The notes beneath the pieces are model-generated. The model made no database searches. It was not told where the DNA came from and saw only the letters and a list, made by a program, of their open reading frames with translations. This document shows, in pieces, positions 5,055 to 45,252 of a stretch of DNA of 64,000 nt; the stretch's first letter is position 1, and each line of letters begins with the position of its first letter. Position numbers and translations under genes: made by a program. This DNA comes from Alphaproteobacteria bacterium. GTDB lineage: Bacteria; Pseudomonadota; Alphaproteobacteria; Rs-D84. Where the stretch lies: positions 2,252 to 66,251 of the forward strand of contig JAFXPG010000014.1 in assembly GCA_017528045.1 (NCBI GenBank), given 5' to 3'.

Positions 5055-5129
5055 TGGCAGTCCCAACGGGAATTGAACCCGTGTTACCGGAATGAGAATC
5101 CGATGTCCTGACCGCTAGACGATGGGACC
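5055..5129 (-). tRNA. tRNA-Glu (anticodon CUC)
   Basis: Minus strand reads GGTCCCATCGTCTAGCGGTCAGGACATCGGATTCTCATTCCGGTAACACGGGTTCAATTCCCGTTGGGACTGCCA. Cloverleaf folded by hand: anticodon stem TCGGA/TCCGG, loop TTCTCAT, T-arm ACGGG/CCCGT, encoded CCA. Confidence 0.88.
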
Positions 5130-18592: not shown

Positions 18593-18666
18593 TGGTTGGA
18601 GCGCACGGATTCGAACCATGATAAAGAGAACCAAAATCTCTTGTCCTACCATTAGACGACGCTCCA
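18593..18666 (-). tRNA. tRNA-Gln (anticodon UUG)
   Basis: Minus strand reads TGGAGCGTCGTCTAATGGTAGGACAAGAGATTTTGGTTCTCTTTATCATGGTTCGAATCCGTGCGCTCCAACCA. Acceptor TGGAGCG/CGCTCCA, anticodon stem AGAGA/TCTCT, loop TTTTGGT, encoded CCA. Confidence 0.9.
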
Positions 18667-35884: not shown

Positions 35885-36892
35885 TTATTCTATACCATTG
35901 ATACCTTTTTTACATAATTTTGCATAGATAGGTTTGTCTAAACCGTATGCCTTTATCAGGTTGCTTGGTTTCTGATTGCACCAGAGATCGTGATAGGAAA
36001 CTATGCCGTTTTTAATCGTTTTTATCAGACTACTGGGCAACTCGGCACGTCCGATGCACGAAGACAGGTAAACAAAGCATTCATCGTTGTCGGCTAAGTT
36101 TTCGCACGCAAGGATACGGGCATATACATTAAGGGTCAAATCTGCCTTGCTAGCGTCCTTTGTCCATGGACTGCCACCACCAATCGGACAGGCAGTAGAA
36201 TAAAAGTCACAGGCTAATTTACGTCCTGTAATACCACAGTCTGCGATAGAACCATGATATGTATAACGTCCGGTACCGTTTATGATGATGTGCGCTGGCT
36301 TTTCGCCTAGGACAGAAATCACAAAACCGGTCAAATCTTCATCGTGCAGCATTGGTATTGCCACAATAGCGGTTTCAATCTTGTCGTCGTTCAATGTGAT
36401 TTGTGTCTTGATATCTATGCCAAGATTATCGGATTGACGAGCCTTATCGTACAGGGCTTTGTTCAGCTTTCGGGCTAGGAATAGTTCCCTGTTTATCTTA
36501 CCTTCGCCTTGGCAGGCATAACCAACAAACACCCCTTGATCGCCCCAGCCGTCAGCAACAACCCCACGATTGATATCTGCCGATTGAATGCCAATTAAAT
36601 TGGTAACCTTTATTTGCGCTGGATTGATTGCAAGATCGCCCCATATTGATGCGTACCGGTCATCATAGCCGATTTCGGCAAGGGCGGCCTTAACATATGC
36701 GGTCAAATCACCGAGTGGGGCAGAGGTGGTAACTTCGCCACCAAGGACGACATTGTTGTCTTTTATCAAGACTTCAACGGCATATTTGACCTGTGGATCT
36801 TGTTCTATTAACCGATCCAAAATGTAACTGGAAATGTAATCGGCGACTTTATCTGGGTGTCCAAGCGACACCGCTTCTGCTGTTCTTTGCAT
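35885..36892 (-). CDS. metK: Divergent, short (335 aa) S-adenosylmethionine synthetase (MetK-family) protein; visibly GC-richer than its surroundings
   Basis: GHPDKVADYIS, GDQGVFVGYA, DCGITGRK and GGGS.W.KDASKAD match the MetK motifs GHPDK.AD, GDQG.MFGYA, D.GLTGRK and GGGAFSGKD.SKVDRS. About 50 aa shorter than E. coli MetK. Confidence 0.8.
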   Translation of the reverse strand: MQRTAEAVSLGHPDKVADYISSYILDRLIEQDPQVKYAVEVLIKDNNVVLGGEVTTSAPLGDLTAYVKAALAEIGYDDRYASIWGDLAINPAQIKVTNLIGIQSADINRGVVADGWGDQGVFVGYACQGEGKINRELFLARKLNKALYDKARQSDNLGIDIKTQITLNDDKIETAIVAIPMLHDEDLTGFVISVLGEKPAHIIINGTGRYTYHGSIADCGITGRKLACDFYSTACPIGGGSPWTKDASKADLTLNVYARILACENLADNDECFVYLSSCIGRAELPSSLIKTIKNGIVSYHDLWCNQKPSNLIKAYGLDKPIYAKLCKKGINGIE

Positions 36893-37066
36893 AATTCACT
36901 CCTTTGGTTTTTGCAGTAAGAACCAAAGGTGGATTCATGTAGCTACCAACACAGGCAGAATTGCACTGTGCAAAATGCGGCATAAAGTATAGGAAAATTT
37001 GCATATAACAACTCCTTGTTTAGTCCATTTAAAGGTAGGACAAGTCAGGTTAAATCCACCTTGATT
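36893..37066 (-). promoter_or_regulatory. Structured ~170-nt 5' leader of the MetK-like gene (candidate riboswitch or translational attenuator)
   Basis: A 10-bp long-range helix pairs AAGGTGGATT (37053-37062 on the plus strand as aatccacctt) with 36926-36935. A local hairpin CCTTTGGTT-N11-AACCAAAGG (36901-36929) has a 3' arm that contains the AAAGGAG ribosome-binding site. Confidence 0.4.
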
Positions 37067-37072
37067 AAGAAT

Positions 37073-37101
37073 AGTATAACAAACCTCGATAAAAAAATCA
37101 A
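37073..37101 (-). promoter_or_regulatory. Sigma70-type promoter for the MetK-like gene
   Basis: Minus strand TTGATT (37096-37101), 17-nt spacer, TATACT (37073-37078). Confidence 0.5.
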
Positions 37102-37211
37102 TACATAATGGGCCGTTTGAGACAGAAGTGGTATGCAAATATGTACAAATTTGGTTGGTTCTGGTTGTATGTAATGTAGTTTGTGGCAATTTTGCAACAA
37201 AAACAGACATT

Positions 37212-37235
37212 AAAAAATCCGCAGAAATCTGCGGA
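37212..37235 (-). terminator. Rho-independent terminator immediately 3' of tRNA-Asn
   Basis: Minus strand TCCGCAGatttCTGCGGAtttttt. Confidence 0.7.
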
Positions 37236-37240
37236 AATCT

Positions 37241-37316
37241 TGGCTCGGGCAACTGGACTCGAACCAGTGACATACGGATTAACAGTCCGTTGTTCTACCG
37301 ACTGAACTATGCCCGA
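37241..37316 (-). tRNA. tRNA-Asn (anticodon GUU)
   Basis: Minus strand reads TCGGGCATAGTTCAGTCGGTAGAACAACGGACTGTTAATCCGTATGTCACTGGTTCGAGTCCAGTTGCCCGAGCCA. All four stems pair, the loop is CTGTTAA, and CCA is encoded. Confidence 0.92.
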
Positions 37317-37321
37317 ATAAC
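37279..37321. repeat. Left copy of a 43-bp exact direct repeat (tRNA-Asn nt 1-38 plus 5 bp upstream); att-like
   Basis: ttaacagtccgttgttctaccgactgaactatgcccgaataac is identical at 43058-43100. Confidence 0.9.
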
Positions 37322-37330
37322 AGGGCATAT

Positions 37331-37357
37331 AGTATACCTGTTAGTCGCAGAAGTCAA
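37331..37357 (-). promoter_or_regulatory. Island-borne promoter reading into the intact tRNA-Asn
   Basis: Minus strand TTGACT (37352-37357), 15-nt spacer, TATACT (37331-36); alternatively a 17-nt spacer to TACTAT. Confidence 0.45.
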
Positions 37358-37430
37358 GCATTTTATGAGATTTACGAGAAGAAATTCTGGGTGCCTTGAA
37401 AACCGTGGTTTTGACGAGTTTTGTGTCTTT

Positions 37431-37556
37431 GTGTAAACCACGTGTAAAACGTAAATTTTTATACCAAATAACAACGGGAAGTTTTAGGAATTTTACTAAA
37501 AAACTCTACTTATAGGCGATTTTTTACTTCGTGTAACCCTCGTGTAAAACGTAAAA
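37431..37556 (+). repeat. Left-arm iterons: two pairs of GTGTAA(A/C)N units spaced 11 bp, with the pairs exactly 100 bp apart
   Basis: gtgtaaaccacgtgtaaaacgtaaa (37431-37455) and gtgtaaccctcgtgtaaaacgtaaaa (37531-37556). The first 22 bp recur exactly at 42908-42929. Confidence 0.75.
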
Positions 37557-37560
37557 ATTA

Positions 37561-37620
37561 AGACAAAAATATTTGACCATTTAACCTTAAACATCGTTCC
37601 ATATATGGTTTTACTCTACT
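37561..37620. repeat. Left member of an imperfect ~55-bp inverted repeat (partner at 42941-43000)
   Basis: ATTTGACC (37571-78) and CCATATATGGTTT (37599-611), 28 bp apart. The reverse complement of 42941-43000 carries ATTTGACC and CAATATATGGTTT with the same 28-bp spacing. Confidence 0.65.
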
Positions 37621-38050
37621 TTTTGGGGTGCTTTTGGACTAATTTTTCAATTTGTATCAATGTTGGAAAATTTTTAGTCCGTTGTTCTCTGGACGAAAAT
37701 TAAAGGGAGAAAAATATCGTTTTTAGCAGATTTGCTAGTTTGTATTCAATTTGTAGTAGAAAATAATACGAACAGAAACAAAAAAGTTATTCCGTTGTTC
37801 TAATAAAAAGCAAAAAATAGGGGTTTTGTTGGATTAGGTACAAGGTGTTTTAATTTATGTTTTGTGCAAATATTATATTTTATGCTTTTGTATGCCAATG
37901 TATAAAAAATGCAAAAGACATACGAACTAACCGAGAGTTGTCGTTTTAAGCAAAATCACAATTGAAATCAATAATGATGTCATATTTGATTTGTATTGAA
38001 AAAATTCTGTATTAGGATGTAAAATACATAATAAACAAAAGGATTAAAAA

Positions 38051-38425
38051 ATGAAAAAGATATGGTTTTTTATACTTGGAATCGTTACAGGCATTATTTT
38101 AACAATATTATTTGCTGTTATTGTATCTAGCTCTTCAAATGGTGGACGTTCTGGGTTGAACATGTTTGAGCAACCAGGAGATTGTTTGATCAGCAAATCA
38201 AGTTTAAAAGTTTTTCAAGTTTTGGAGCCAACGGCTGCTTTGGCAATGATAAAAGATGATTTTTCATCGGGTGCATATTTGTTAGTCAATCAAGATGGTA
38301 AAACATATTATGATGATCAGGTTATTAAATTGCCATCGGGAAAATGTTTTAAACAAATCGGGACATATCAGTATCCAACAAAAGATGATAGATTAAAAAC
38401 AGTTCCTGTCGTTCAGATAATGTAA
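38051..38425 (+). CDS. Small membrane-anchored hypothetical protein
   Basis: 124 aa with one N-terminal TM segment (IWFFILGIVTGIILTILFAVIV). A terminator follows. Confidence 0.6.
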   Translation: MKKIWFFILGIVTGIILTILFAVIVSSSSNGGRSGLNMFEQPGDCLISKSSLKVFQVLEPTAALAMIKDDFSSGAYLLVNQDGKTYYDDQVIKLPSGKCFKQIGTYQYPTKDDRLKTVPVVQIM

Positions 38426-38434
38426 GAATTAAAA

Positions 38435-38456
38435 CTCGCCAATTTGGCGAGTTTTT
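38435..38456 (+). terminator. Rho-independent terminator
   Basis: CTCGCCaatttGGCGAGttttt. Confidence 0.7.
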
Positions 38457-38487
38457 AATATTTGCATCTATTTGATTATTTAAATAT

Positions 38488-40227
38488 ATGTTTTATAATG
38501 GACGCATGAAAACGAAATCCTATATTGCTGATAATAAAAAACTCATGCTTGAATGGGACTTGGGGCGTAATATTGATTTAGATCCACAAAAAACAGGTAG
38601 AAATTCTAACAAAAAGGCGTGGAGGAAATGTTCTAAGTGTGGATATGAGTGGCAAGCTCAGATAAATAATCGGTCAAGAGGTGCTGGGTGTCCATGTTGT
38701 TCGAAAAGGGCTTTTATACCTGGAGTTAATGATTTAGCTACTGTTTATCCAGAAATAGCAAAAGATTGGCATCCCACAAAGAATGGTACACTTATGCCAA
38801 ATAATATTGGTAGAAGTGCATCTAAGAAAGTTTGGTGGAAATGCCATAAATGTGGGTATGAATGGCAAACTACAGTTTCGGGAAGAACCAGCAGTGTATC
38901 TAAATGCCCAATGTGTATTGGTAGGGTACTGGTTCCTGGGAAAAATGATCTGGCTACAAAATATCCTGGATTAGCGACAGAATGGCATCCAACGAAGAAT
39001 GAACAAATAGCACCTATAAATGTTATGCCTGGAACGCACACGAAATACTGGTGGAAGTGTTCTAAATGCGGGCATGAGTGGCAGGCTTCACCAAACAACA
39101 GAACAACACATAATTCAATATGTCCTCAATGTTCTATAAACACGTATGCTATTGAGGGTGTTAATGATTTAGCAACGACACATCCTGGATTGGCAAAAGA
39201 ATGGCATCCCACAAAGAATGGTAATCTGACACCACAAAAATGTAGATATGGTTCTAGCCGAAAAGTATGGTGGTTGTGTCCTAATTGTGGTCGTGACTAT
39301 CAAGCTAGCATTTATGGTCGTGTTATGGGGTCTGGCTGTAGACGGTGTATACATACAAATCATACATCTTATCCCGAACAGGCTTTGTTTCATTACATTC
39401 AACAGGTCTATCCCGATGCCATCAATAGATATAAAACAGATTGGTTAGGAAGAATGGAATTAGATATTTTTATTCCATCACTTAATTATGCAATTGAATA
39501 CGATGGTTCCAGATGGCATACAAAAAGCACTATTAAACAAGAACAAAAGAAATATGCCTTGTGTCATGATCATAATATTACTCTCCTAAGGGTTAGGGAA
39601 GAGATATCAGAATTAGGAACTGATATAGCAGATCGTGAAATAGGAGTTGTTACAAAAGATGGAAAACCCTGTTTGGAAGCAACCATAATAGAAGTAGTTC
39701 GATTTATAAATTTTTCACTTAAACGTGTGTCAATAAATCTTAAACAAGACGAGTTAAATATTAGAGAAAAATATTTATGCAAACCGAGAGATTCATTACA
39801 AAATAAATATCCAGAAATAGCAAAACAATGGCACCCAGAGAAGAATGGACAGATAACACCAGATATGGTAAAACCTGGTTCGGAAATTAAAGTCTGGTGG
39901 AAATGTTCCAAATGTGGTTATGAATGGCCCTCAAGCATAAAACACAAAACAAGAACAAAAAAAGCCACGTGTCCGGCTTGTTCAAATCAAGTACTGATCC
40001 CTGGGCGAAATGATTTAGCAACGACTCATCCTGAATTAGCAAAAGAATGGCATCCAACGAAAAATGGCGATGTGACCCCAAACAATATTATCACAGGAAA
40101 TGGAAGAAAATACTGGTGGAAGTGTTCTAAATGCGGATATGAGTGGCAGGCAACAATAACTCATAGAAAGTTTTCAAACTCAGGTTGTCCAGATTGTTAC
40201 AAGCGTACAAGAAAGCACAAACACTAA
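38488..40227 (+). CDS. Six-fold zinc-ribbon (DUF4379-type) repeat protein with a central PD-(D/E)XK-like (Vsr/DUF559-like) nuclease core
   Basis: Six modules of the form NDLAT..P.LAKEWHPTKNG.L.P.......KVWWKC.KCGYEWQA....R.....CP.C, four N-terminal and two C-terminal. The central block is ELDIFIPSLNYAIEYDGSRWH...ITLLRVRE. The module DNA is also repeated at nucleotide level (for example about 39167-39215 versus 40013-40060). Confidence 0.75.
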   Translation: MFYNGRMKTKSYIADNKKLMLEWDLGRNIDLDPQKTGRNSNKKAWRKCSKCGYEWQAQINNRSRGAGCPCCSKRAFIPGVNDLATVYPEIAKDWHPTKNGTLMPNNIGRSASKKVWWKCHKCGYEWQTTVSGRTSSVSKCPMCIGRVLVPGKNDLATKYPGLATEWHPTKNEQIAPINVMPGTHTKYWWKCSKCGHEWQASPNNRTTHNSICPQCSINTYAIEGVNDLATTHPGLAKEWHPTKNGNLTPQKCRYGSSRKVWWLCPNCGRDYQASIYGRVMGSGCRRCIHTNHTSYPEQALFHYIQQVYPDAINRYKTDWLGRMELDIFIPSLNYAIEYDGSRWHTKSTIKQEQKKYALCHDHNITLLRVREEISELGTDIADREIGVVTKDGKPCLEATIIEVVRFINFSLKRVSINLKQDELNIREKYLCKPRDSLQNKYPEIAKQWHPEKNGQITPDMVKPGSEIKVWWKCSKCGYEWPSSIKHKTRTKKATCPACSNQVLIPGRNDLATTHPELAKEWHPTKNGDVTPNNIITGNGRKYWWKCSKCGYEWQATITHRKFSNSGCPDCYKRTRKHKH

Positions 40228-40272
40228 CATATTCTAATTGGTTTATTTATCTGTATATCATATGGTTTTAAC

Positions 40273-41136
40273 TTAGACATTATAGTCAAAACAAATCCGT
40301 AAAAATTCTTCACCAAGCTTTGTTGGTCTTGCGGTATTGTAGTGTATTTTTATAGAATCTGCCCCATATTGATCTTTATGTTTCTTATATATAGCGCAAT
40401 CTTCGTATATATAATAATACAAGGGATTTGATAATTTGAACTCAGTATTATTCACTTCGAATAACCCTAGACGAAGCAAATTTTCTAAAGATAAGGTATC
40501 CTGTCGCATCTCTATTTCTGTAGTTGAAATTTTTTCTTCTCCAGAATACTTTGAAAATAGAAGGGGCTCTAAATACGAAAAACTACCTCTGGGTTTTACT
40601 TGTGGATCTGAATCTTTCGTTATAAATATTGTTCCCCATACTTTAAGTCTTTTTGTTATAAAGGATTGTAATACTTGAATATCATTTCTGTTTAGTTGAC
40701 CAATAATACTAACGAAAGCATCTTGATGTGATTGGGCGGTGTCGCGATTCATTGCGCTGGCAATCAATTTTGCAAATAATAATCTTTTTTCTTTTTCGTC
40801 CACATATTTTAAAGATTCTGTTATAGTCGGGTATGTTGATAATTTTGGTGTTATTTTTTTATCTTGTGGAACTTTATTGACTGCATCTACGATTTCTTGT
40901 GCGTAATTTTGTGCCAAATCTGGTGCGTAATTAGCCAATGCATCTTTCATTATTTGTTTAATTTGCCCAGATAATTCTGTTTCAGAATCCAAATTAAATA
41001 TCATAACAGCATTATTCGTTGTTTTATTACCAGCAACATTATCGCCGTTTTTATTTTTTATATTATTGCCAGTTCGTTTCCAATGAAAATTGAAACGTAA
41101 CAAGTTTGAAAGTTTGCAATCTTTAAGTATCATCAT
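40273..41136 (-). CDS. Abi-alpha (DUF4393)-like protein, tentative
   Basis: ...VPQDKKITP...ITESLKYVDEKEKRLLFAKLIASAMNRDTAQSHQDAFVSIIGQLNRNDIQVLQSF matches my recollection of the DUF4393/Abi_alpha core (..elremFanLLasamd....vhpsFveiikqLsp.Ea.iL). By eye only. Confidence 0.55.
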   Translation of the reverse strand: MMILKDCKLSNLLRFNFHWKRTGNNIKNKNGDNVAGNKTTNNAVMIFNLDSETELSGQIKQIMKDALANYAPDLAQNYAQEIVDAVNKVPQDKKITPKLSTYPTITESLKYVDEKEKRLLFAKLIASAMNRDTAQSHQDAFVSIIGQLNRNDIQVLQSFITKRLKVWGTIFITKDSDPQVKPRGSFSYLEPLLFSKYSGEEKISTTEIEMRQDTLSLENLLRLGLFEVNNTEFKLSNPLYYYIYEDCAIYKKHKDQYGADSIKIHYNTARPTKLGEEFLRICFDYNV

Positions 41137-41217
41137 TTTTGCCTTGTTTATATTATGCTAATAATATATATGCTTTAACGTAAAACACAACAAAAATCGT
41201 CTAAATTTAGCAAAATA

Positions 41218-41442
41218 CTAATAATGCGTTTTCTTTTTCCACAATGCAGCCATTTGGGATAGTTTGTGGTACAGCCGGCGGAATAGCCAAGCCTGTTTGC
41301 AGGTTAGATGCCCGTTTTGTCTGTAGTGCACATTCGATTCCAATTCGCGTAAAGATCTGCATGCTGCGAAATAAAGCATGATGAAATCAGTTTTGTTGTT
41401 TGGTTCAATTTCCTGAAAATGTTTATACTGCTTCATAGACAA
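41218..41442 (-). CDS. Hypothetical small protein
   Basis: 74-aa ORF in a GC-richer stretch. No motif. Confidence 0.35.
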   Translation of the reverse strand: MSMKQYKHFQEIEPNNKTDFIMLYFAACRSLRELESNVHYRQNGHLTCKQAWLFRRLYHKLSQMAALWKKKTHY

Positions 41443-41514
41443 TCCTTTTTAAGGTTGTCGTATTTGTCCGTATTTTGAATCAATTGTCCAGTCATTTGTT
41501 AAGTATTTAATATA

Positions 41515-41543
41515 TTGATTTTTCCGCTATTTTATGATATAAT
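41515..41543 (+). promoter_or_regulatory. Sigma70 promoter with extended -10 for the 41663/DUF488 operon
   Basis: TTGATT (41515-20), 17-nt spacer, TG-n-TATAAT (41535-43). Confidence 0.5.
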
Positions 41544-41557
41544 ATCTGACAATTAAG

Positions 41558-41643
41558 GGCGCATTTTTGCGCCGTTTTTATTGCTCGCTAAATCACCCAC
41601 AAAATTTTGCAATTTCGTGGGGCCCGATATGCGGGCTTTTTTT
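41558..41643 (+). promoter_or_regulatory. Leader with three consecutive hairpins, the last a canonical intrinsic terminator about 20 nt before the RBS (candidate attenuator)
   Basis: GGCGCatttttGCGCC (41558-73), CCCACAAAATTttgcAATTTCGTGGG (41596-621), and GCCCGatatgCGGGC followed by T7 (41622-43). Then aaaggag-N6-ATG at 41663. Confidence 0.5.
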
Positions 41644-41662
41644 ATTTAACAAAGGAGTAAAA

Positions 41663-42313
41663 ATGAAAAAATCTGACATTATTATTTCGGATATAACTTG
41701 TATGAAAGAAAAATTTTGTATTGCTGGTTTTGATACTTATGAAAAGCGTATGAAACGACTTATGATTGATGGTGGTTATTGGGATGAAAATCAAATACCG
41801 CGGACGTATTGTCAGATAATGGTTGAAAATGAACCCTTTGATGAACCGCGCGATTATCCGCACAGAACAGAAGATGTTAACATAAACTACGAATCTATAG
41901 AAATTGAAAGATATTTTGAACCTGGTAAAGAATTGGCTGATTGTTTGAAAGATACTGTATCAAAAGATATACAATCGATATTCAATCATCATGTCAAAGA
42001 AAAATCTTATGTTTTACAAAATACTAAATGCCCATCGCTTGGTGCGACAGTAATTTCTGCACGAGATATAGAATTCTTTACAGATGATGGTAAACTGCGT
42101 GCAAGTATAACGGATTTTTCTAAGCAAAAATATGATATGAAAGTCAGTTGCAAATACTTGCGTGATATTTTTGAAAGAACCAAAGATGTCGATAAATTAA
42201 ACTATATGGTTTCTCAGTCACAATATGCGCATTGCAGAATTGGTCTGGCGCGTAAATTTTTGATTCAGGAAAATCATTGCTATTTGATGCTAAATGGGCT
42301 ATTTTTATACTGA
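41663..42313 (+). CDS. Hypothetical protein (216 aa), translationally coupled to the DUF488 gene
   Basis: ATG at 41663 with an AAGGAG RBS; the ORF-track N-terminal extension covers the leader hairpins. Begins MKKSDIIISDITCMKEKFCIAGFD. No family confidently recognised. Confidence 0.65.
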   Translation: MKKSDIIISDITCMKEKFCIAGFDTYEKRMKRLMIDGGYWDENQIPRTYCQIMVENEPFDEPRDYPHRTEDVNINYESIEIERYFEPGKELADCLKDTVSKDIQSIFNHHVKEKSYVLQNTKCPSLGATVISARDIEFFTDDGKLRASITDFSKQKYDMKVSCKYLRDIFERTKDVDKLNYMVSQSQYAHCRIGLARKFLIQENHCYLMLNGLFLY

Positions 42314-42314
42314 T

Positions 42315-42740
42315 ATGACAAAGATATTTACGATTGGTTTTAGTGGCAAAAAGCCAGAAGTTTTTCTGGAAGTGCTGTCAGCGGCACGCATAAGTTGTGT
42401 GTGGGACATTCGGCTTTGGCGGACGAGCACTTATGTGCCATATTATAATGGCGATAATTTGGCAGCAGTGCTGGGTAATCGTTATGAATATCATCCAGAA
42501 TTTGCACCAAGCGGAGAATTTTTGGCTGATTATAAAGATAAAAAACTTGCTTGGGCAGAGTTCGAGCAGAAATATCGCGAATTGTTAAACGCGCGCAACC
42601 CGCTGCGAAATTTTGATACTCATAAACTAGACAGGATATGTTTACTTTGCACAGAAAAGACAGCCGATATGTGTCACAGACGGCTAGCAGCTGAATACAT
42701 CGCAAGCCAAATCCCAGATATTGAAATCGTACATTTATAA
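42315..42740 (+). CDS. DUF488 family protein
   Basis: IFTIGFSGK...F...L....I..VWDIRLW ... LLCTEKTADMCHRRLAAEYI matches the DUF488 pattern (iyTIGhs ... DVR..P ... LlC.E.....CHR..ia..l). The ATG lies 1 nt after the upstream TGA (TGAtATG). Confidence 0.72.
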   Translation: MTKIFTIGFSGKKPEVFLEVLSAARISCVWDIRLWRTSTYVPYYNGDNLAAVLGNRYEYHPEFAPSGEFLADYKDKKLAWAEFEQKYRELLNARNPLRNFDTHKLDRICLLCTEKTADMCHRRLAAEYIASQIPDIEIVHL

Positions 42741-42805
42741 TGCTTAGAACAGGGGACCAAGAATTCGTGTTCCTCATCTTTTTTGACCATGTAAATCACT
42801 TTTGT

Positions 42806-42926
42806 GTGTAGCCGGTGTGTAAACCGTGTGTAGCAAGGACAACGGAACGGCGTTACGGCATTTTGCGGGGTTGAAAAGGTGGTGTAAACTGTGTGTAAAC
42901 ACGTTCTGTGTAAACCACGTGTAAAA
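42806..42926 (+). repeat. Right-arm iterons: seven GTGTA(A/G)NN units in the same orientation as the left arm, mostly 11-bp phased
   Basis: Units start at 42806, 42817, 42828, 42882, 42893, 42908 and 42919. Confidence 0.75.
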
Positions 42927-42940
42927 CGTTATCTGGAGTT

Positions 42941-43000
42941 AAACCATATATTGATAGACTTTTTGCGTAAACGGTCAAATTTCTTTTCTTAATAAGTAGC
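42941..43000. repeat. Right member of the imperfect inverted repeat (partner at 37561-37620)
   Basis: AAACCATATATT (42951-62) and GGTCAAAT (42983-90). Confidence 0.65.
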
Positions 43001-43057
43001 GGTTATTAGCGCATTTTTTCGCAATTATCGTCTGTTAGGGAGGGTGCTCGGTCGCCG

Positions 43058-43100
43058 TTAACAGTCCGTTGTTCTACCGACTGAACTATGCCCGAATAAC
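43058..43100 (-). pseudogene. Orphan 5' half of tRNA-Asn (nt 1-38) with its own upstream promoter; right copy of the 43-bp direct repeat
   Basis: Identical to 37279-37321. No anticodon-stem 3' strand, T-arm or acceptor 3' strand follows. Promoter-like TTGACT-N17-TATTAT on the minus strand at 43108-43136. Confidence 0.85.
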
Positions 43101-43209
43101 GCGACATATAATAACCTTAAAATCCGCACAAGTCAAGGACTTTCTAAACATTTTGCAAAGAAAATTCATATACCGCAAGAATCTGCCTTTTAGGGCATTT
43201 TTTGCCAAG

Positions 43210-43228
43210 GTGTAGACTTGGTGTAGAT
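43210..43228 (+). repeat. Additional GTGTAGA iteron pair outside the island, 11-bp spacing
   Basis: gGTGTAGActtgGTGTAGAtgg. It is followed at 43283-43291 by another tccgttgtt core-like motif. Confidence 0.6.
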
Positions 43229-43482
43229 GGGAAAAAATCAGGTAAAAACACGAGCTTTTTTAGCAAAAATATTCTTTGTTATTCCGTTGTTTCGGCAAAA
43301 GTCTTGTTGTTTGTTGCGCTGTACACATAAAAAACTCCCCAGAAAACTGCCCAGAAAATTTTTGGTGTGTTGGTAAAAAATCCAATAGAATTAGCTGTAT
43401 CGGCCCGGACTGTGGCGGTCATTGGGAAGTAGTGTTTTGAATAAATGTGAAAAGAGAAGTAAAATATTGGAGTTGAACAAAT

Positions 43483-44268
43483 TTATCTTATACGTTTTAT
43501 TTCAATACCAACAACTTGTTCGTGGGTTAATTCTTCGCGTGATACAAATTTAGTAATTGTGTCCATAAGTTCTGTCATATCTTTAAAACCAGAACGTTTT
43601 ATATCAATCTTTTTAAACAAAGATTCAAAGTCCGGTGCAACGTGCATATTTAATATTTCACAAATGATATATTCATCAGGATTTTCTGCATCAAACAGCA
43701 AGAATTTGTCCCCGGTTTTCATCTTTTTACGTTTTTCATCGTATGCACGTAATTCGATATCTTTTTGACCAGATTTTATCATTTCGAAATATTTATTCCG
43801 AACACTCATAGAAAAACGACAGCCCAGATTAGACATAATATGTTTTGCAAAAAAATCACGCATATCGTCAATTTGAATAATTTGTGGGTCTGTTAAACTG
43901 GTAAAGTCTAACCAAACAACAGATATATTTTCATTTCGTTTTTCACAAAATTTTAAGTCAAGATTTTCTGTTTCGTGCGAAATAAAATAATGGTGTTCTT
44001 CGGACCATGCTCCGCGTTTTTCTGCTCGTTGCGGATCTGTGTGTTTGAAAGAATATGCAGCAGGAATTTCTGTGATTAAATTTAACATTTTTAATGAAGG
44101 TTCACCCAATTCTTCAGTCAATTCACGGCGCAGAGCATCCTTAAATTTTTCGCCATCATCCAAACGACCACCAATTGGACCATAGCCATCCTTACCATAA
44201 CGCAATAATGCAACTTTGTCATTGTGTATTGGCAAAATATAGGCAGAATAACTTTTGTTTTTTATCAT
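43483..44268 (-). CDS. NUDIX hydrolase fused to a C-terminal ASCH domain
   Basis: Perfect NUDIX box GRLDDGEKFKDALRRELTEELGE (Gx5Ex7REUxEExGU). The C-terminal MSVRNKYFEMIKSGQKDIELRAYDEKRKKMKTGDKFLLF is ASCH-like. Confidence 0.75.
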   Translation of the reverse strand: MIKNKSYSAYILPIHNDKVALLRYGKDGYGPIGGRLDDGEKFKDALRRELTEELGEPSLKMLNLITEIPAAYSFKHTDPQRAEKRGAWSEEHHYFISHETENLDLKFCEKRNENISVVWLDFTSLTDPQIIQIDDMRDFFAKHIMSNLGCRFSMSVRNKYFEMIKSGQKDIELRAYDEKRKKMKTGDKFLLFDAENPDEYIICEILNMHVAPDFESLFKKIDIKRSGFKDMTELMDTITKFVSREELTHEQVVGIEIKRIR

Positions 44269-44419
44269 ATATAATATCCCTTACCCAGATATTATTTTTG
44301 CATGTTTATTTTGATTTTCAAGGTTTTTATAAACGCTATTTTTATGTATAAGCTTGGTAATAAACATAACAGATCAAGCAATATTGTTATTATATAATTT
44401 TCATATAAGGAGTTGAATT

Positions 44420-45019
44420 ATGATTTATGGTTATATTCGTGTAAGCACAGATAAACAAGATTGCGATAATCAAAAAATAGGTATTGAATATAAAGCATAT
44501 GAATTGGGGTTAAAAATAGATAAATATATAGAAGATGCAGGAATTTCTGGAATAAAAGAACCGGAACAACGTGCATTAGGTGGATGTTTAAAAAAATTAA
44601 AATCCGGTGATATTATTATTTGTTCTGAATTGTCCAGATTAGGACGTAAACTTTTTATGATTATGCGTATTTTAGAACATTGTATGAAATGTGGTGCTAA
44701 AGTTTATACTGTCAAAGATGGTTATGAATTGGGTGATAATATACAATCTAAAGTTATGGCTTTTGCGTTTGGTTTGTCTGCGGAAATAGAACGTGATTTG
44801 ATAAGTCAAAGAACAAAAGAAGCTTTGTTTAAATTAAAACAACAAGGTAAAAAATTAGGTCGTAAATTTGGCAGTAAAAATAAAAAACATAAATTAGATG
44901 GTAAAACAGATATTGTAAAATATTTGTTAAACAAAAAGATTCCAAAGAAAAAAATAGCAAAACATTTAAAAGTAAGTGTGCCAACACTTTATTCTTTTAT
45001 TTACAAAATAAAGCATTAA
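44420..45019 (+). CDS. Small serine recombinase (resolvase/invertase family)
   Basis: MIYGYIRVSTDKQ catalytic-Ser motif, SRLGR, and a C-terminal HTH (IAKHLKVSVPTLYSFI). 199 aa. Confidence 0.88.
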   Translation: MIYGYIRVSTDKQDCDNQKIGIEYKAYELGLKIDKYIEDAGISGIKEPEQRALGGCLKKLKSGDIIICSELSRLGRKLFMIMRILEHCMKCGAKVYTVKDGYELGDNIQSKVMAFAFGLSAEIERDLISQRTKEALFKLKQQGKKLGRKFGSKNKKHKLDGKTDIVKYLLNKKIPKKKIAKHLKVSVPTLYSFIYKIKH

Positions 45020-45252
45020 TCAGCTGTTTTGTCTATGAATTTGAATAAATCTTGTGGAACAGATTTTGTAGCTGTTAAAACTTTTGCTATACTTTCTACG
45101 GACATCCAGCGTGGTTTTCCAGATTTATAAAATCTTTTGCTTTTATTGAAAATAGTTGGATCCAGTCCACAAAATTTAGCAAGACCAGAACATGTTAATT
45201 TGCGTTCTTTTGCAAACATATCTATTGCATGCCATATTTCATCGTGTGTCAT
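45016..45252 (-). CDS. Stand-alone HTH protein resembling the N-terminal domain of alphaproteobacterial S24/repressor-like regulators
   Basis: HDEIWHAIDMFAKERKLTCSGLAKFCGLDPTIFNKSKR....GKPRWMSVESIAKVL. No peptidase domain. Confidence 0.65.
   Translation of the reverse strand: MTHDEIWHAIDMFAKERKLTCSGLAKFCGLDPTIFNKSKRFYKSGKPRWMSVESIAKVLTATKSVPQDLFKFIDKTAD

What the first reader, a model, noticed from the sequence alone, without database searches (positions are those of the whole stretch)
37241..43100. 5.7-kb integrase-less island in tRNA-Asn with reversed (5'-half) polarity and a self-supplied tRNA promoter
A 43-bp exact direct repeat (37279-37321 = 43058-43100) consists of nt 1-38 of tRNA-Asn(GUU) plus 5 bp of upstream leader. 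Those 38 nt run from the 5' end through the last anticodon-loop base.

The complete tRNA (37241-37316, minus strand) sits at the left end. The right copy is an orphan 5' half. The intervening 5.7 kb therefore lies upstream of the intact tRNA. That is the mirror image of the arrangement generally described for tRNA-targeting tyrosine integrases, where the element carries the 3' part of the tRNA and ends up downstream.

Consistent with this, imperfect homology continues beyond the repeat. Each copy is also preceded on the minus strand by its own sigma70-like promoter: TTGACT..TATACT at 37331-37357, and TTGACT-N17-TATTAT at 43108-43136. The element appears to bring a replacement promoter plus 5' half.

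No tyrosine or large-serine integrase is encoded between the repeats. The element therefore looks like a cis-mobilisable (CIME-like) island serviced in trans, or an immobilised remnant. Its cargo is dominated by candidate conflict genes.
Basis: partly seen in the sequence, partly recalled or inferred. Interest (0 to 1): 0.72.

Follow-up and report, generated by a model that had tools for sequence, protein, structure and literature searches.

The report
Integrase-less defence island in tRNA-Asn
A 5.8-kb island of anti-phage genes with no recombinase of its own sits in the tRNA-Asn gene of an uncultured gut alphaproteobacterium, rebuilds the tRNA with its own 5' half and promoter, and carries the attachment-site features of a family of temperate phages whose integrase most likely moves it.

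Summary
In detail: an intact tRNA-Asn(GUU) at 37241-37316 (minus strand) and an exact 43-bp direct repeat (37279-37321 = 43058-43100) covering tRNA nt 1-38 plus 5 leader bases. Each copy has its own sigma70-like promoter.

The host belongs to the reduced-genome gut lineage Rs-D84 (Candidatus Enterousia-like). In fetched relatives, 48 orphan tRNA-Asn 5' halves all end exactly at nt 38. Orphan 3' parts start at nt 31/32. The 7-nt anticodon loop is therefore the crossover, and both polarities occur in this lineage.

P4-like tyrosine integrases with an arm-binding domain, carried by lambda-like prophages, sit beside this site in relatives. A 25-nt stretch of their arm sequence, containing the double GTGTAAA motif, is identical in the island. 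The island's right flank is an 88%-identical, truncated arm of such a prophage, not the ancestral promoter.

One metagenome scaffold carries the island as a tandem dimer with a perfect attP-type junction. Cargo is Abi_alpha, a DuOB/DUF488 pair and a zinc-ribbon nuclease.

Verdict: a CIME-like element, probably phage-serviced, within a widespread family of defence-cassette arrays. Reversed polarity is rare but already described. This is a new variant of a known kind.

The parts
37241..37316 (-). Intact tRNA-Asn(GUU). Its 5' half (nt 1-38, 37279-37316) is supplied by the island. Its 3' half (37241-37278) and terminator are chromosomal.
   Evidence: ARAGORN; Rfam tRNA 74 bits; terminator at 37235-37218
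37279..37321 (-). Proximal copy of the 43-bp exact direct repeat (tRNA nt 1-38 plus 5 leader bases). The anticodon loop at 37279-37285 is the inferred crossover segment.
   Evidence: crossover inferred from 48 orphan 5' halves ending at nt 38 and orphan 3' parts starting at nt 31/32
37329..37357 (-). Island-borne sigma70-like promoter P1 (TTGACT-17-TACTAT), placed to drive the reconstituted tRNA.
   Evidence: same geometry as P2 and as prophage P arms. Consensus match only; expression not shown.
37430..37552 (-). Left (P) arm: two copies of the paired arm-type motif (37431-37448 and 37531-37548; TTTACAC-N4-TTTACAC in tRNA sense).
   Evidence: A 25-nt exact match to the L139/L111 prophage P arm at the same offset. 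The motif sits at -110 to -139 of 41 tRNA copies against a background of 0.017 per 300 nt.
37678..37801 (-). Two extra copies of the core-like sequence AGAACAACGGA (tRNA nt 21-31), at 37678-37688 and 37791-37801.
   Evidence: 5 hits, all in att regions; 0.58 expected by chance
38051..38425 (+). 124-aa protein with a hydrophobic N-terminus; function unknown.
   Evidence: no Pfam, PADLOC or PHROG hit
38488..40227 (+). 579-aa protein with six DUF4379 treble-clef zinc ribbons around a central endonuclease-like region.
   Evidence: Pfam DUF4379 1e-111; phrog_559 'HNH endonuclease' 3e-44 and homing-endonuclease phrogs
40273..41136 (-). Abi_alpha abortive-infection-type protein.
   Evidence: Pfam PF14337 5e-28; PADLOC PDC-S47 3e-22
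41221..41436 (-). Conserved 72-aa two-helix protein ('sp72') with a conserved upstream box. It lies in the segment where modules from different units are joined.
   Evidence: (105 homologues). Function unknown; no Pfam or PDB match.
41663..42313 (+). 216-aa DuOB-family protein, overlapping the start of the DUF488 gene (probable two-gene conflict system).
   Evidence: no direct Pfam hit. Homologues at 65-70% identity carry PF22557 DuOB.
42294..42740 (+). DUF488 (N3a subclade) protein.
   Evidence: Pfam PF04343 4e-19; PADLOC PDC-M45C 3e-32
42805..42929 (-). Right (P') arm: four paired-motif matches (42806-42823 and 42817-42834, which overlap, plus 42882-42899 and 42908-42925). Also an inverted core-like copy at 42836-42846. 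42907-42929 is identical to 37430-37452.
   Evidence: (family D5). Arm pairs lie 120-139 nt downstream of 21 of 42 orphan halves.
43058..43100 (-). Distal copy of the 43-bp repeat: orphan tRNA-Asn 5' half (43058-43095) plus leader.
43101..43291 (-). Outside the island: truncated P arm of a second, prophage-type element. It holds promoter P2 (43108-43136), a degenerate arm pair GTGTAGA-N4-GTGTAGA (43210-43227) and a core-like copy (43278-43291).
   Evidence: 88% identity over 231 nt to the P arm beside xis-int in L143 and L164. 90% over the 150 nt upstream of the half. Element-type promoter class..

Best explanation
The segment from 37279 to 43057 (5,779 bp per repeat unit) is an integrated, integrase-less mobile island. 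It entered the single tRNA-Asn gene by conservative site-specific recombination within the 7-nt anticodon loop (CTGTTAA, tRNA nt 32-38).

Its attachment site carries tRNA nt 1-38, a 5-nt leader, a sigma70-type promoter and arm-type sites. After integration, the functional tRNA is the island's promoter and 5' half joined to the chromosomal 3' half and terminator. The previously resident 5' half is pushed 5.8 kb upstream as an orphan.

The recombinase is not encoded by the island. The best candidate is the P4-like tyrosine integrase (Arm-DNA-bind_3 + SAM-like + catalytic domains), acting with an HTH_17 Xis-like protein, of lambda-like temperate phages that use the same site in related genomes. 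The island keeps the core and arm motifs of those phages on both ends. It lies directly next to the truncated arm of such a prophage. It could therefore be excised, integrated or co-excised with a neighbouring prophage, as cis-mobilisable elements are.

The cargo is anti-phage/conflict genes: Abi_alpha, a DuOB + DUF488 pair and a zinc-ribbon nuclease.

Shown directly: the repeats, the fixed breakpoint, integrases beside the site in relatives, shared arm sequence, the attP-type junction in one assembly, and the cargo families.

Inferred: that the YTACAC pairs are integrase arm sites, that the phage integrase acts on this island, and that the promoters fire.
For: Repeat and tRNA.

Fixed breakpoint: 48 of 48 orphan 5' halves in relatives lose tRNA identity at nt 38/39 (46 exactly, 2 with one chance base). 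At least 8 unrelated sequence families follow the breakpoint. Five orphan 3' parts in the first locus set, plus six junctions next to the integrases P0024 and P0075, start at nt 31/32. The shared segment is the anticodon loop.

Order: in all tiles holding both a full tRNA and an orphan 5' half in the same orientation, the orphan lies upstream of the full tRNA.

Integrase: a protein of about 406 aa with Arm-DNA-bind_3, Phage_int_SAM_3 and Phage_integrase domains sits about 0.5 kb from the tRNA 5' end in L066, L139 and L111. It sits beside an orphan half in L075 and L164. It has 452 homologues. Its context is Xis-like HTH_17, ParB/methylase, GpA terminase and portal, which is a prophage. The IMG/VR contig L143 begins at the 5' half.

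Arms: a 25-nt exact match between the island's P arm and the L139/L111 P arm. The arm-pair motif is position-fixed on both sides of att copies and found only with element-type promoters: 41 of 92 against 0 of 54.

Neighbouring prophage remnant.

Activity: scaffold_727 carries a tandem dimer with a 1,043-bp, 100%-identical attP-type junction. The 23-bp arm block is identical at both ends.

Family: 39 of 120 genome tiles hold orphan halves, and units of 2.0-6.9 kb lack any recombinase. One MAG (RGIG6772) has both the prophage integrase beside an orphan half and an integrase-less array (L075 and L023).

Empty sites: in other species the tRNA has a different promoter, no arm pair and a housekeeping gene adjacent.
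Against: - No integrase of this family is in the 64-kb window, and I could not search the rest of this genome.
- The neighbouring prophage is truncated before xis-int, so a helper may be absent from this strain.
- No empty site or free circle was recovered for this exact strain. All long contigs that are more than 99.9% identical to the window carry the island.
- The tandem dimer could come from unequal crossing-over between repeats, or from the assembler traversing a cycle.
- The island side of the core (CGGCG...) shows no dyad symmetry with the anticodon stem.
- Arm-site function is inferred only from position and conservation.
- Similar TACAC pairs also occur downstream of some full tRNAs. 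I read these as arms of conventional-polarity elements, but that is itself an inference.
Confidence: 0.75

Rival explanations
1. Immobilised remnant. The region is what is left of one or more prophages or islands after internal deletions. It was inserted site-specifically in the past but can no longer move in this strain.
For: No integrase or Xis in the island or the window. The adjacent prophage arm is truncated at about 43287, before xis-int. The island is a mosaic of modules. The native-promoter orphan half that should close the array is missing from the window.
Against: The 43-bp repeat is perfect, and the 23-bp arm block is identical at both ends. An attP-type junction exists in one assembly. 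Integrase-less units with intact ends recur in dozens of species with different defence cargo, which looks like a maintained class rather than random decay.
Confidence: 0.17
2. Homology-driven rearrangement. The 5.8 kb was inserted or duplicated by RecA-type recombination through the 43-106 bp of shared tRNA/promoter sequence (Campbell-type or unequal crossing-over), with no dedicated recombinase.
For: Homology extends to 106 nt at 77%. A tandem dimer is the typical product of unequal crossing-over. Module exchange at the shared sp72 segment looks homologous.
Against: The breakpoint is identical (nt 38) in 48 copies that are followed by at least 8 unrelated sequences. The reciprocal class starts at nt 31/32, so both share only the 7-nt loop. 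Position-fixed arm motifs and integrase genes sit beside the site.
Confidence: 0.05
3. The neighbouring small serine recombinase (44420-45019, invertase type) is the enzyme that moves or rearranges the island.
For: It lies 1.3 kb outside the distal repeat. Homologues occur within a few kb of tRNA-Asn in several relatives (L012, L051, L070, L077, L129). The orientation of the tRNA relative to MetK flips between genomes.
Against: It is outside the repeats and absent from most arrays. No inverted or direct sites of the invertase kind were found around it. A 7-nt shared segment flanked by arm repeats is the architecture of tyrosine integrases, which are found at the site in relatives.
Confidence: 0.02
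4. Assembly artefact (false duplication of a tRNA fragment).
For: The sequence is metagenome-derived, and one scaffold shows a dimer that short reads cannot normally resolve.
Against: The same structure appears in three independent assemblies. Logan contigs end inside the repeat as expected from k-mer branching. The same architecture occurs in many MAGs.
Confidence: 0.01

Closest known systems
CIMEs (cis-mobilisable elements, e.g. those related to ICESt1/ICESt3 of Streptococcus thermophilus; reviewed in PMC5704250, catalogued in ICEberg, PMC6323972)
   Same: Flanked by functional-looking att sites of a related integrase-bearing element. No integrase, excisionase or transfer genes of its own. 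Found in tandem (accretion) with the integrase-bearing element or its remnant. Expected to be excised alone or together with the helper.
   Different: The helper here is a temperate phage rather than an ICE. The target is the anticodon loop of a tRNA with the 5' half and promoter supplied by the element. The elements form multi-unit arrays of defence cassettes in genomes below 1 Mb. Mobilisation has not been shown.
Reverse-orientation tRNA integration (Zhao & Williams 2002, J Bacteriol 184:859, cited in PMC6563490 and PMC1635311; archaeal pTN3-like integrases, PMC8371274)
   Same: The attP carries the 5' part of the tRNA gene, so the reconstituted gene is transcribed from an element-borne promoter.
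   Different: Those elements encode their own integrase (in pTN3 the att lies within int). Here the element has none. In the same lineage, integrases 52-70% identical to the reversed-type ones use the same crossover with the usual 3' polarity.
Anticodon-loop class of tRNA integration sites for tyrosine integrases (Williams 2002, NAR 30:866; summarised in PMC8371274)
   Same: A 7-nt anticodon loop serves as the overlap/crossover segment. The identity block runs from the loop to one end of the gene. Integrases have arm-binding domains and arm sites.
   Different: The identity block runs to the 5' end. The island side of the core has no obvious stem-like symmetry.
Phage satellites carrying defence systems (P4-like elements, PICIs)
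   Same: A small island that depends on a helper phage function and carries anti-phage cargo next to an att site.
   Different: Satellites encode their own integrase, regulators and packaging-hijack or replication genes. None was detected here.
Integron gene cassettes
   Same: Recombinase-less cassettes stacked in direct orientation at one site and serviced by a single tyrosine recombinase encoded elsewhere.
   Different: No attC hairpins and no IntI. The recombination site is a tRNA half. Each unit carries a promoter for the tRNA rather than relying on a platform promoter.

Membership tests
tRNA-integrated island made by a tyrosine integrase (anticodon-loop sublocation) | Direct repeats consisting of part of the tRNA gene, one within an intact tRNA | tested here: met
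tRNA-integrated island made by a tyrosine integrase (anticodon-loop sublocation) | Identity block bounded by the anticodon loop, with a reproducible breakpoint across independent insertions | tested here: met
   48 of 48 orphan 5' halves end at nt 38. Orphan 3' parts start at nt 31/32.
tRNA-integrated island made by a tyrosine integrase (anticodon-loop sublocation) | Integrase gene inside the element | tested here: not met
   Pfam on all ORFs, tblastn, small ORFs
tRNA-integrated island made by a tyrosine integrase (anticodon-loop sublocation) | Empty site with one uninterrupted tRNA in relatives | tested here: inconclusive
   The exact local junction (full tRNA + right-flank leader) occurs in 15 metagenome contigs. 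These are relatives at about 90% DNA identity, several of which hold other islands. Clearly empty sites with a native-type promoter exist in other species. None was found for this strain.
CIME-like (cis-mobilisable) element | Both ends are att sites related to those of an integrase-bearing element that uses the same target | tested here: met
   Same core. A 25-nt identical arm block with L139/L111 prophages. Arm pairs at fixed offsets on both sides.
CIME-like (cis-mobilisable) element | No recombination, replication, transfer or packaging genes | tested here: met
   Pfam, PADLOC and PHROGs. sp72 and the 124-aa protein remain of unknown function.
CIME-like (cis-mobilisable) element | Found in accretion with the helper element | tested here: met
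   The window's distal repeat abuts a truncated prophage P arm. The intact configuration appears in L075 and L164 (prophage integrase beside an orphan half). Both occur in MAG RGIG6772 (L023 + L075).
CIME-like (cis-mobilisable) element | Excision or transfer dependent on the helper's integrase | not testable with these tools
   The only indirect evidence is the attP-type junction / tandem dimer in scaffold_727.
Phage satellite (P4-like / PICI) | Own integrase plus helper-exploitation genes (primase/rep, packaging or capsid-redirecting genes) | tested here: not met
Integron cassette | attC recombination site and IntI-type integrase platform | tested here: not met
   The unit boundaries are tRNA halves. 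The associated integrase is P4-like with an arm-binding domain.

The most novel reading that the evidence does not exclude
In Rs-D84/Enterousia-type gut Alphaproteobacteria (genomes below 1 Mb), the single tRNA-Asn gene serves as an integron-like platform. Phage-encoded integrases stack and shuffle recombinase-less defence cassettes at the anticodon loop. Each cassette brings a fresh promoter and 5' half so the essential tRNA is always re-expressed. Polarity (5'-restoring versus 3'-restoring attP) has switched within one integrase family. The conserved 72-aa protein found just downstream of tRNA copies would be a new accessory or regulatory factor of this system.
Probability: 0.3. Interest if true: 0.8.

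Novelty: new variant of a known kind. Interest (0 to 1): 0.6.

Why it matters
tRNA genes are the classic landing sites for islands and prophages. In bacteria, restoration of the 3' part from the original promoter is the near-universal rule, so automated island finders are built around it.

This locus, with the roughly 50 related copies recovered here, gives a natural series. The same 7-nt crossover is used with both polarities by related integrases. Recombinase-less mini-islands carrying diverse defence systems accumulate in arrays at that crossover.

That makes three questions testable:
- How attP polarity evolves.
- How far a phage integrase can service foreign cassettes.
- How genomes below 1 Mb acquire and exchange immunity genes.

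It also flags a class of islands (no integrase, 5' fragment) that standard tRNA-fragment and integrase-anchored pipelines would probably miss.

Tried and rejected
1. I scanned metagenomes for an 'attB-specific' pattern (tRNA 3' half + repeat + right-flank leader) as an empty-site test. It returned 15 hits. Mapping showed they are relatives at about 90% DNA identity, some with other islands directly upstream (L009, L016). The right-flank leader is itself an element-type arm. The hits are therefore not clean empty sites.

2. I looked for a decayed third tRNA half or an integrase remnant in the window, using a tolerant regex, short blastn and tblastn. None was found.

3. Rfam on 36800-45500 found only the tRNA.

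4. I looked for invertase-type inverted sites around 43100-47500. Only a hairpin at 45260-45325 turned up.

5. I looked for a small Xis/HTH ORF in the island's non-coding stretches. None was found.

6. I tested whether the conserved 270-nt segment at 41229-41500 is an RNA. It is instead a conserved 72-aa ORF. Its AlphaFold model is a two-helix hairpin with no informative PDB match and no Pfam hit.

7. A simple 'element versus native' promoter classification is not absolute. One IMG/VR contig has an element-supplied promoter of the native-looking type.

8. I searched IMG/VR for phage genomes with a complete attP. Only contig ends and short units were recovered.

9. One search was an empty placeholder script.

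Full report
**Observation.** The window contains one tRNA-Asn(GUU) at 37241-37316 on the minus strand (Rfam 74 bits). A 43-bp sequence occurs exactly twice, at 37279-37321 and 43058-43100. There are no further copies even with three mismatches allowed, and none in shuffled sequence. It is tRNA nt 1-38 plus five leader bases. Similarity continues at 77% for about 60 more bases on the promoter side only. Consensus scans place TTGACT-17-TACTAT at 37357-37329 and TTGACT-17-TATTAT at 43136-43108. A terminator follows the intact tRNA at 37235-37218. The same structure is present in three independent metagenome assemblies, and short de Bruijn contigs stop inside the repeat.

**Anatomy.** Between the repeats lie six genes:
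- a 124-aa protein of unknown function (38051-38425);
- a 579-aa protein with six DUF4379 zinc ribbons and a nuclease-like centre (38488-40227);
- Abi_alpha (40273-41136);
- a conserved 72-aa ORF (41221-41436);
- a DuOB-family protein (41663-42313);
- a DUF488 protein that overlaps it (42294-42740).

None of these genes is a recombinase, and tblastn with the lineage's integrase finds nothing in the whole window.

Both ends are non-coding and repeat-rich. The paired motif GTGTA[AG][ACG]-N3-5-GTGTA[AG][ACG] occurs seven times in 64 kb, always on the plus strand. Two copies are in the left end, four in the right end and one in the right flank. A 23-bp block is identical at 37430-37452 and 42907-42929. 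Copies of AGAACAACGGA (tRNA nt 21-31) also occur only in these regions.

**Host and family.** An exact-match scan for the tRNA 5' half in species-representative genomes returned more than 120 tiles. Nearly all come from gut or rumen Alphaproteobacteria MAGs, many named Candidatus Enterousia. This is order Rs-D84, whose genomes are mostly below 1 Mb (PMC12306168).

Of the 120 tiles, 39 hold at least one orphan 5' half. Same-orientation units of 2.0-6.9 kb are common. Wherever a full tRNA and an orphan in the same orientation share a tile, the orphan is upstream.

All 48 orphan halves with enough downstream sequence lose identity to the tRNA at nt 38/39. At least eight unrelated sequence families follow that point. 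Orphan 3' parts begin at nt 31/32. Five were found in the first locus set, and more lie next to the integrases P0009, P0024 and P0075. The two classes overlap only in CTGTTAA, the anticodon loop. This is the signature of the anticodon-loop class of tyrosine-integrase sites (Williams 2002, as summarised in PMC8371274).

**The recombinase.** A motif screen of all ORFs in the fetched loci found proteins of about 406 aa with Arm-DNA-bind_3, SAM-like and Phage_integrase domains. They lie about 0.5 kb upstream of, and divergent from, the tRNA 5' end in L066, L139 and L111. They lie beside an orphan half in L075 and L164.

The family has 452 homologues at E below 1e-30. Its genomic context is a lambda-like prophage: HTH_17 Xis-like gene, int, ParB/methyltransferase, GpA large terminase and portal. 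An IMG/VR viral contig starts exactly at the 5' half.

In these prophages the double TTTACAC motif sits about 125 nt upstream of the tRNA. Twenty-five consecutive bases are identical between the island's left arm and L139/L111. Across all loci the pair motif lies at -110 to -139 of 41 tRNA copies and 120-139 nt downstream of half the orphan halves. The background is 0.017 per 300 nt. I therefore read the 'iterons' as arm-type integrase sites. This is an inference from position, orientation and the integrases' arm-binding domain.

**Polarity.** Integrases 71-100% identical to the L139 integrase (P0001, P0002, P0004, L066, L075, L143) sit next to a 5' half with a promoter. This is the reversed polarity. 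P0009 (70%), P0024 (57%) and P0075 (52%) sit in the same position and orientation but next to an orphan 3' part that starts at the loop. This is the conventional polarity. The reaction and insertion point are the same. What differs is which side of attP carries tRNA sequence. Reversed polarity is described as much less frequent (PMC6563490) and seldom seen in bacteria (PMC8371274), but it is known (Zhao & Williams 2002).

**The right flank is not ancestral.** Upstream regions of tRNA copies fall into two groups:
- An element type (CTTGACTTGTGCGG...) that carries the arm pair in 41 of 92 cases.
- Other types, mainly CTTGAAA..., that never carry the arm pair (0 of 54) and abut housekeeping genes. 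These are the empty sites.

Both promoters in the window are of the element type. Window 43058-43287 is 88% identical to the arm beside xis-int in L143 and L164, and the match stops about 100 nt before xis would begin. The island therefore abuts the stump of a prophage of the helper family. The native-promoter half that should end the array is absent from the window.

**Mosaicism and activity.** Three segments of the island match units or modules found in other MAGs:
- 37939-41500 is 97% identical to a unit bounded by its own halves in L120.
- 41229-42124 is 91% identical to L037.
- 42277-43154 is 92% identical to 2-kb units in L023 and L045, and to L054.

The joint lies in the conserved sp72 segment.

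Scaffold_727 of ERZ28653664 carries two complete copies in tandem. The middle junction (right end + repeat + left end) is 100% identical over 1,043 bp, while sister assemblies carry one copy. Reads joining the two island ends therefore exist in that sample. They could come from a true tandem or from a circle. I cannot distinguish these without the reads.

**Cargo across the family.** Other integrase-less units carry a range of defence-type genes:
- OLD-type ATPase/TOPRIM plus UvrD helicase, which is Gabija-like (L105, the closest species representative);
- restriction-modification genes (L023, L085);
- Abi_alpha and AAA_15/21 ATPases (L107);
- Schlafen/AlbA and DUF3644 (L034, L060);
- radical-SAM/CYTH genes (L119).

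The locus is a defence hotspot built from att-bounded units.

**Mechanism and rivals.** The best explanation is a CIME-like island inserted at the anticodon loop and serviced by a phage tyrosine integrase (confidence 0.75). The main rival is that in this strain it is now only a fixed remnant (0.17). Homology-driven rearrangement (0.05), the neighbouring invertase (0.02) and assembly error (0.01) fit the fixed breakpoint and arm architecture poorly.

**Caveats.**
- The locus collection was seeded with the exact 5' half, so counts of 3' orphans are biased low.
- Genome tiles are 8 kb, so large units are not seen.
- Promoter and arm-site functions are sequence inferences.
- No helper integrase was shown in this genome.

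**Novelty.** Each ingredient is known: tRNA anticodon-loop integration, rare 5' polarity, integrase-less att-flanked elements, and defence cargo. New here are the combination, the phage helper, the array organisation in a reduced-genome lineage, and the polarity switch within one integrase family. I rate it a new variant of a known kind, with interest 0.6.

Noticed in passing
window 41221-41436 (-): A conserved 72-aa two-helix protein ('sp72') with 105 homologues and no Pfam or PDB match. In the fetched loci it is usually the first gene 320-660 nt downstream of a tRNA-Asn copy (orphan or full), in the same orientation. It has a strongly conserved upstream box (ACTGGAC...ACGACAACCTTAAAAGGATTGTCTATG). 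Its role is unknown; it could be an accessory or regulatory factor of the att system.
   Followed up: partly
window 35885-36892 (-): The MetK-like SAM synthetase next to the tRNA 3' end has 45% GC against about 31% for the window, and it matches a phage family (phrog_1569, 1e-71). In L070, MetK plus an invertase lie between a full tRNA and an orphan 3' part. MetK may therefore be cargo of a conventional-polarity unit on the other side of the tRNA.
   Followed up: partly
window 43483-45252: Between the prophage-arm stump and the next conserved genes lie a NUDIX-ASCH protein, a small serine DNA invertase (phrog_125) and a 78-aa HTH protein. Homologues of the invertase and HTH recur near tRNA-Asn in relatives. 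No invertase sites were identified.
   Followed up: partly
window 45260-45325: A 31-nt imperfect inverted repeat (hairpin) lies in the 150-nt gap between the HTH gene and the 309-aa/1089-aa gene pair. That pair is the tRNA's direct upstream neighbour in L057 and L021.
   Followed up: no
L039, L046, L097, L104, L129, L164: The orientation of tRNA-Asn relative to MetK is flipped in several relatives. L097 and L164 have an inverted orphan half about 350-440 bp from a full tRNA. This suggests inversions by recombination between inverted att copies.
   Followed up: no
L068, L160, L120, L023, L055; L126, L132, L139, L111, L133, L060, L014: Regions downstream of tRNA copies carry two other repeat families. 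One is TGAWWTCA iterons. The other is inverted pairs GACAYACGGA...TCCGTRTGTC, which are copies of tRNA nt 39-48. They are probably arm or core-type sites of other (conventional-polarity) elements or integrase clades.
   Followed up: no
L164 2006-2081 (+): A full tRNA-Asn variant with a compensatory change in the anticodon stem (ACAATGGA...TCCATAT) sits inverted next to an orphan half with the standard sequence.
   Followed up: no
L051, L100, L113, L115, L142: Tiles carrying this alphaproteobacterial tRNA-Asn are labelled Muribaculaceae (including a 716-kb 'chromosome'), Bacteroidales or Bacteroides fragilis in their records. This is probably mis-binning or mislabelling.
   Followed up: no
window 5055-5129 and 18593-18666: Two further tRNA genes (Glu-CTC and Gln-TTG) are in the window. 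They were not examined for similar fragment repeats.
   Followed up: no
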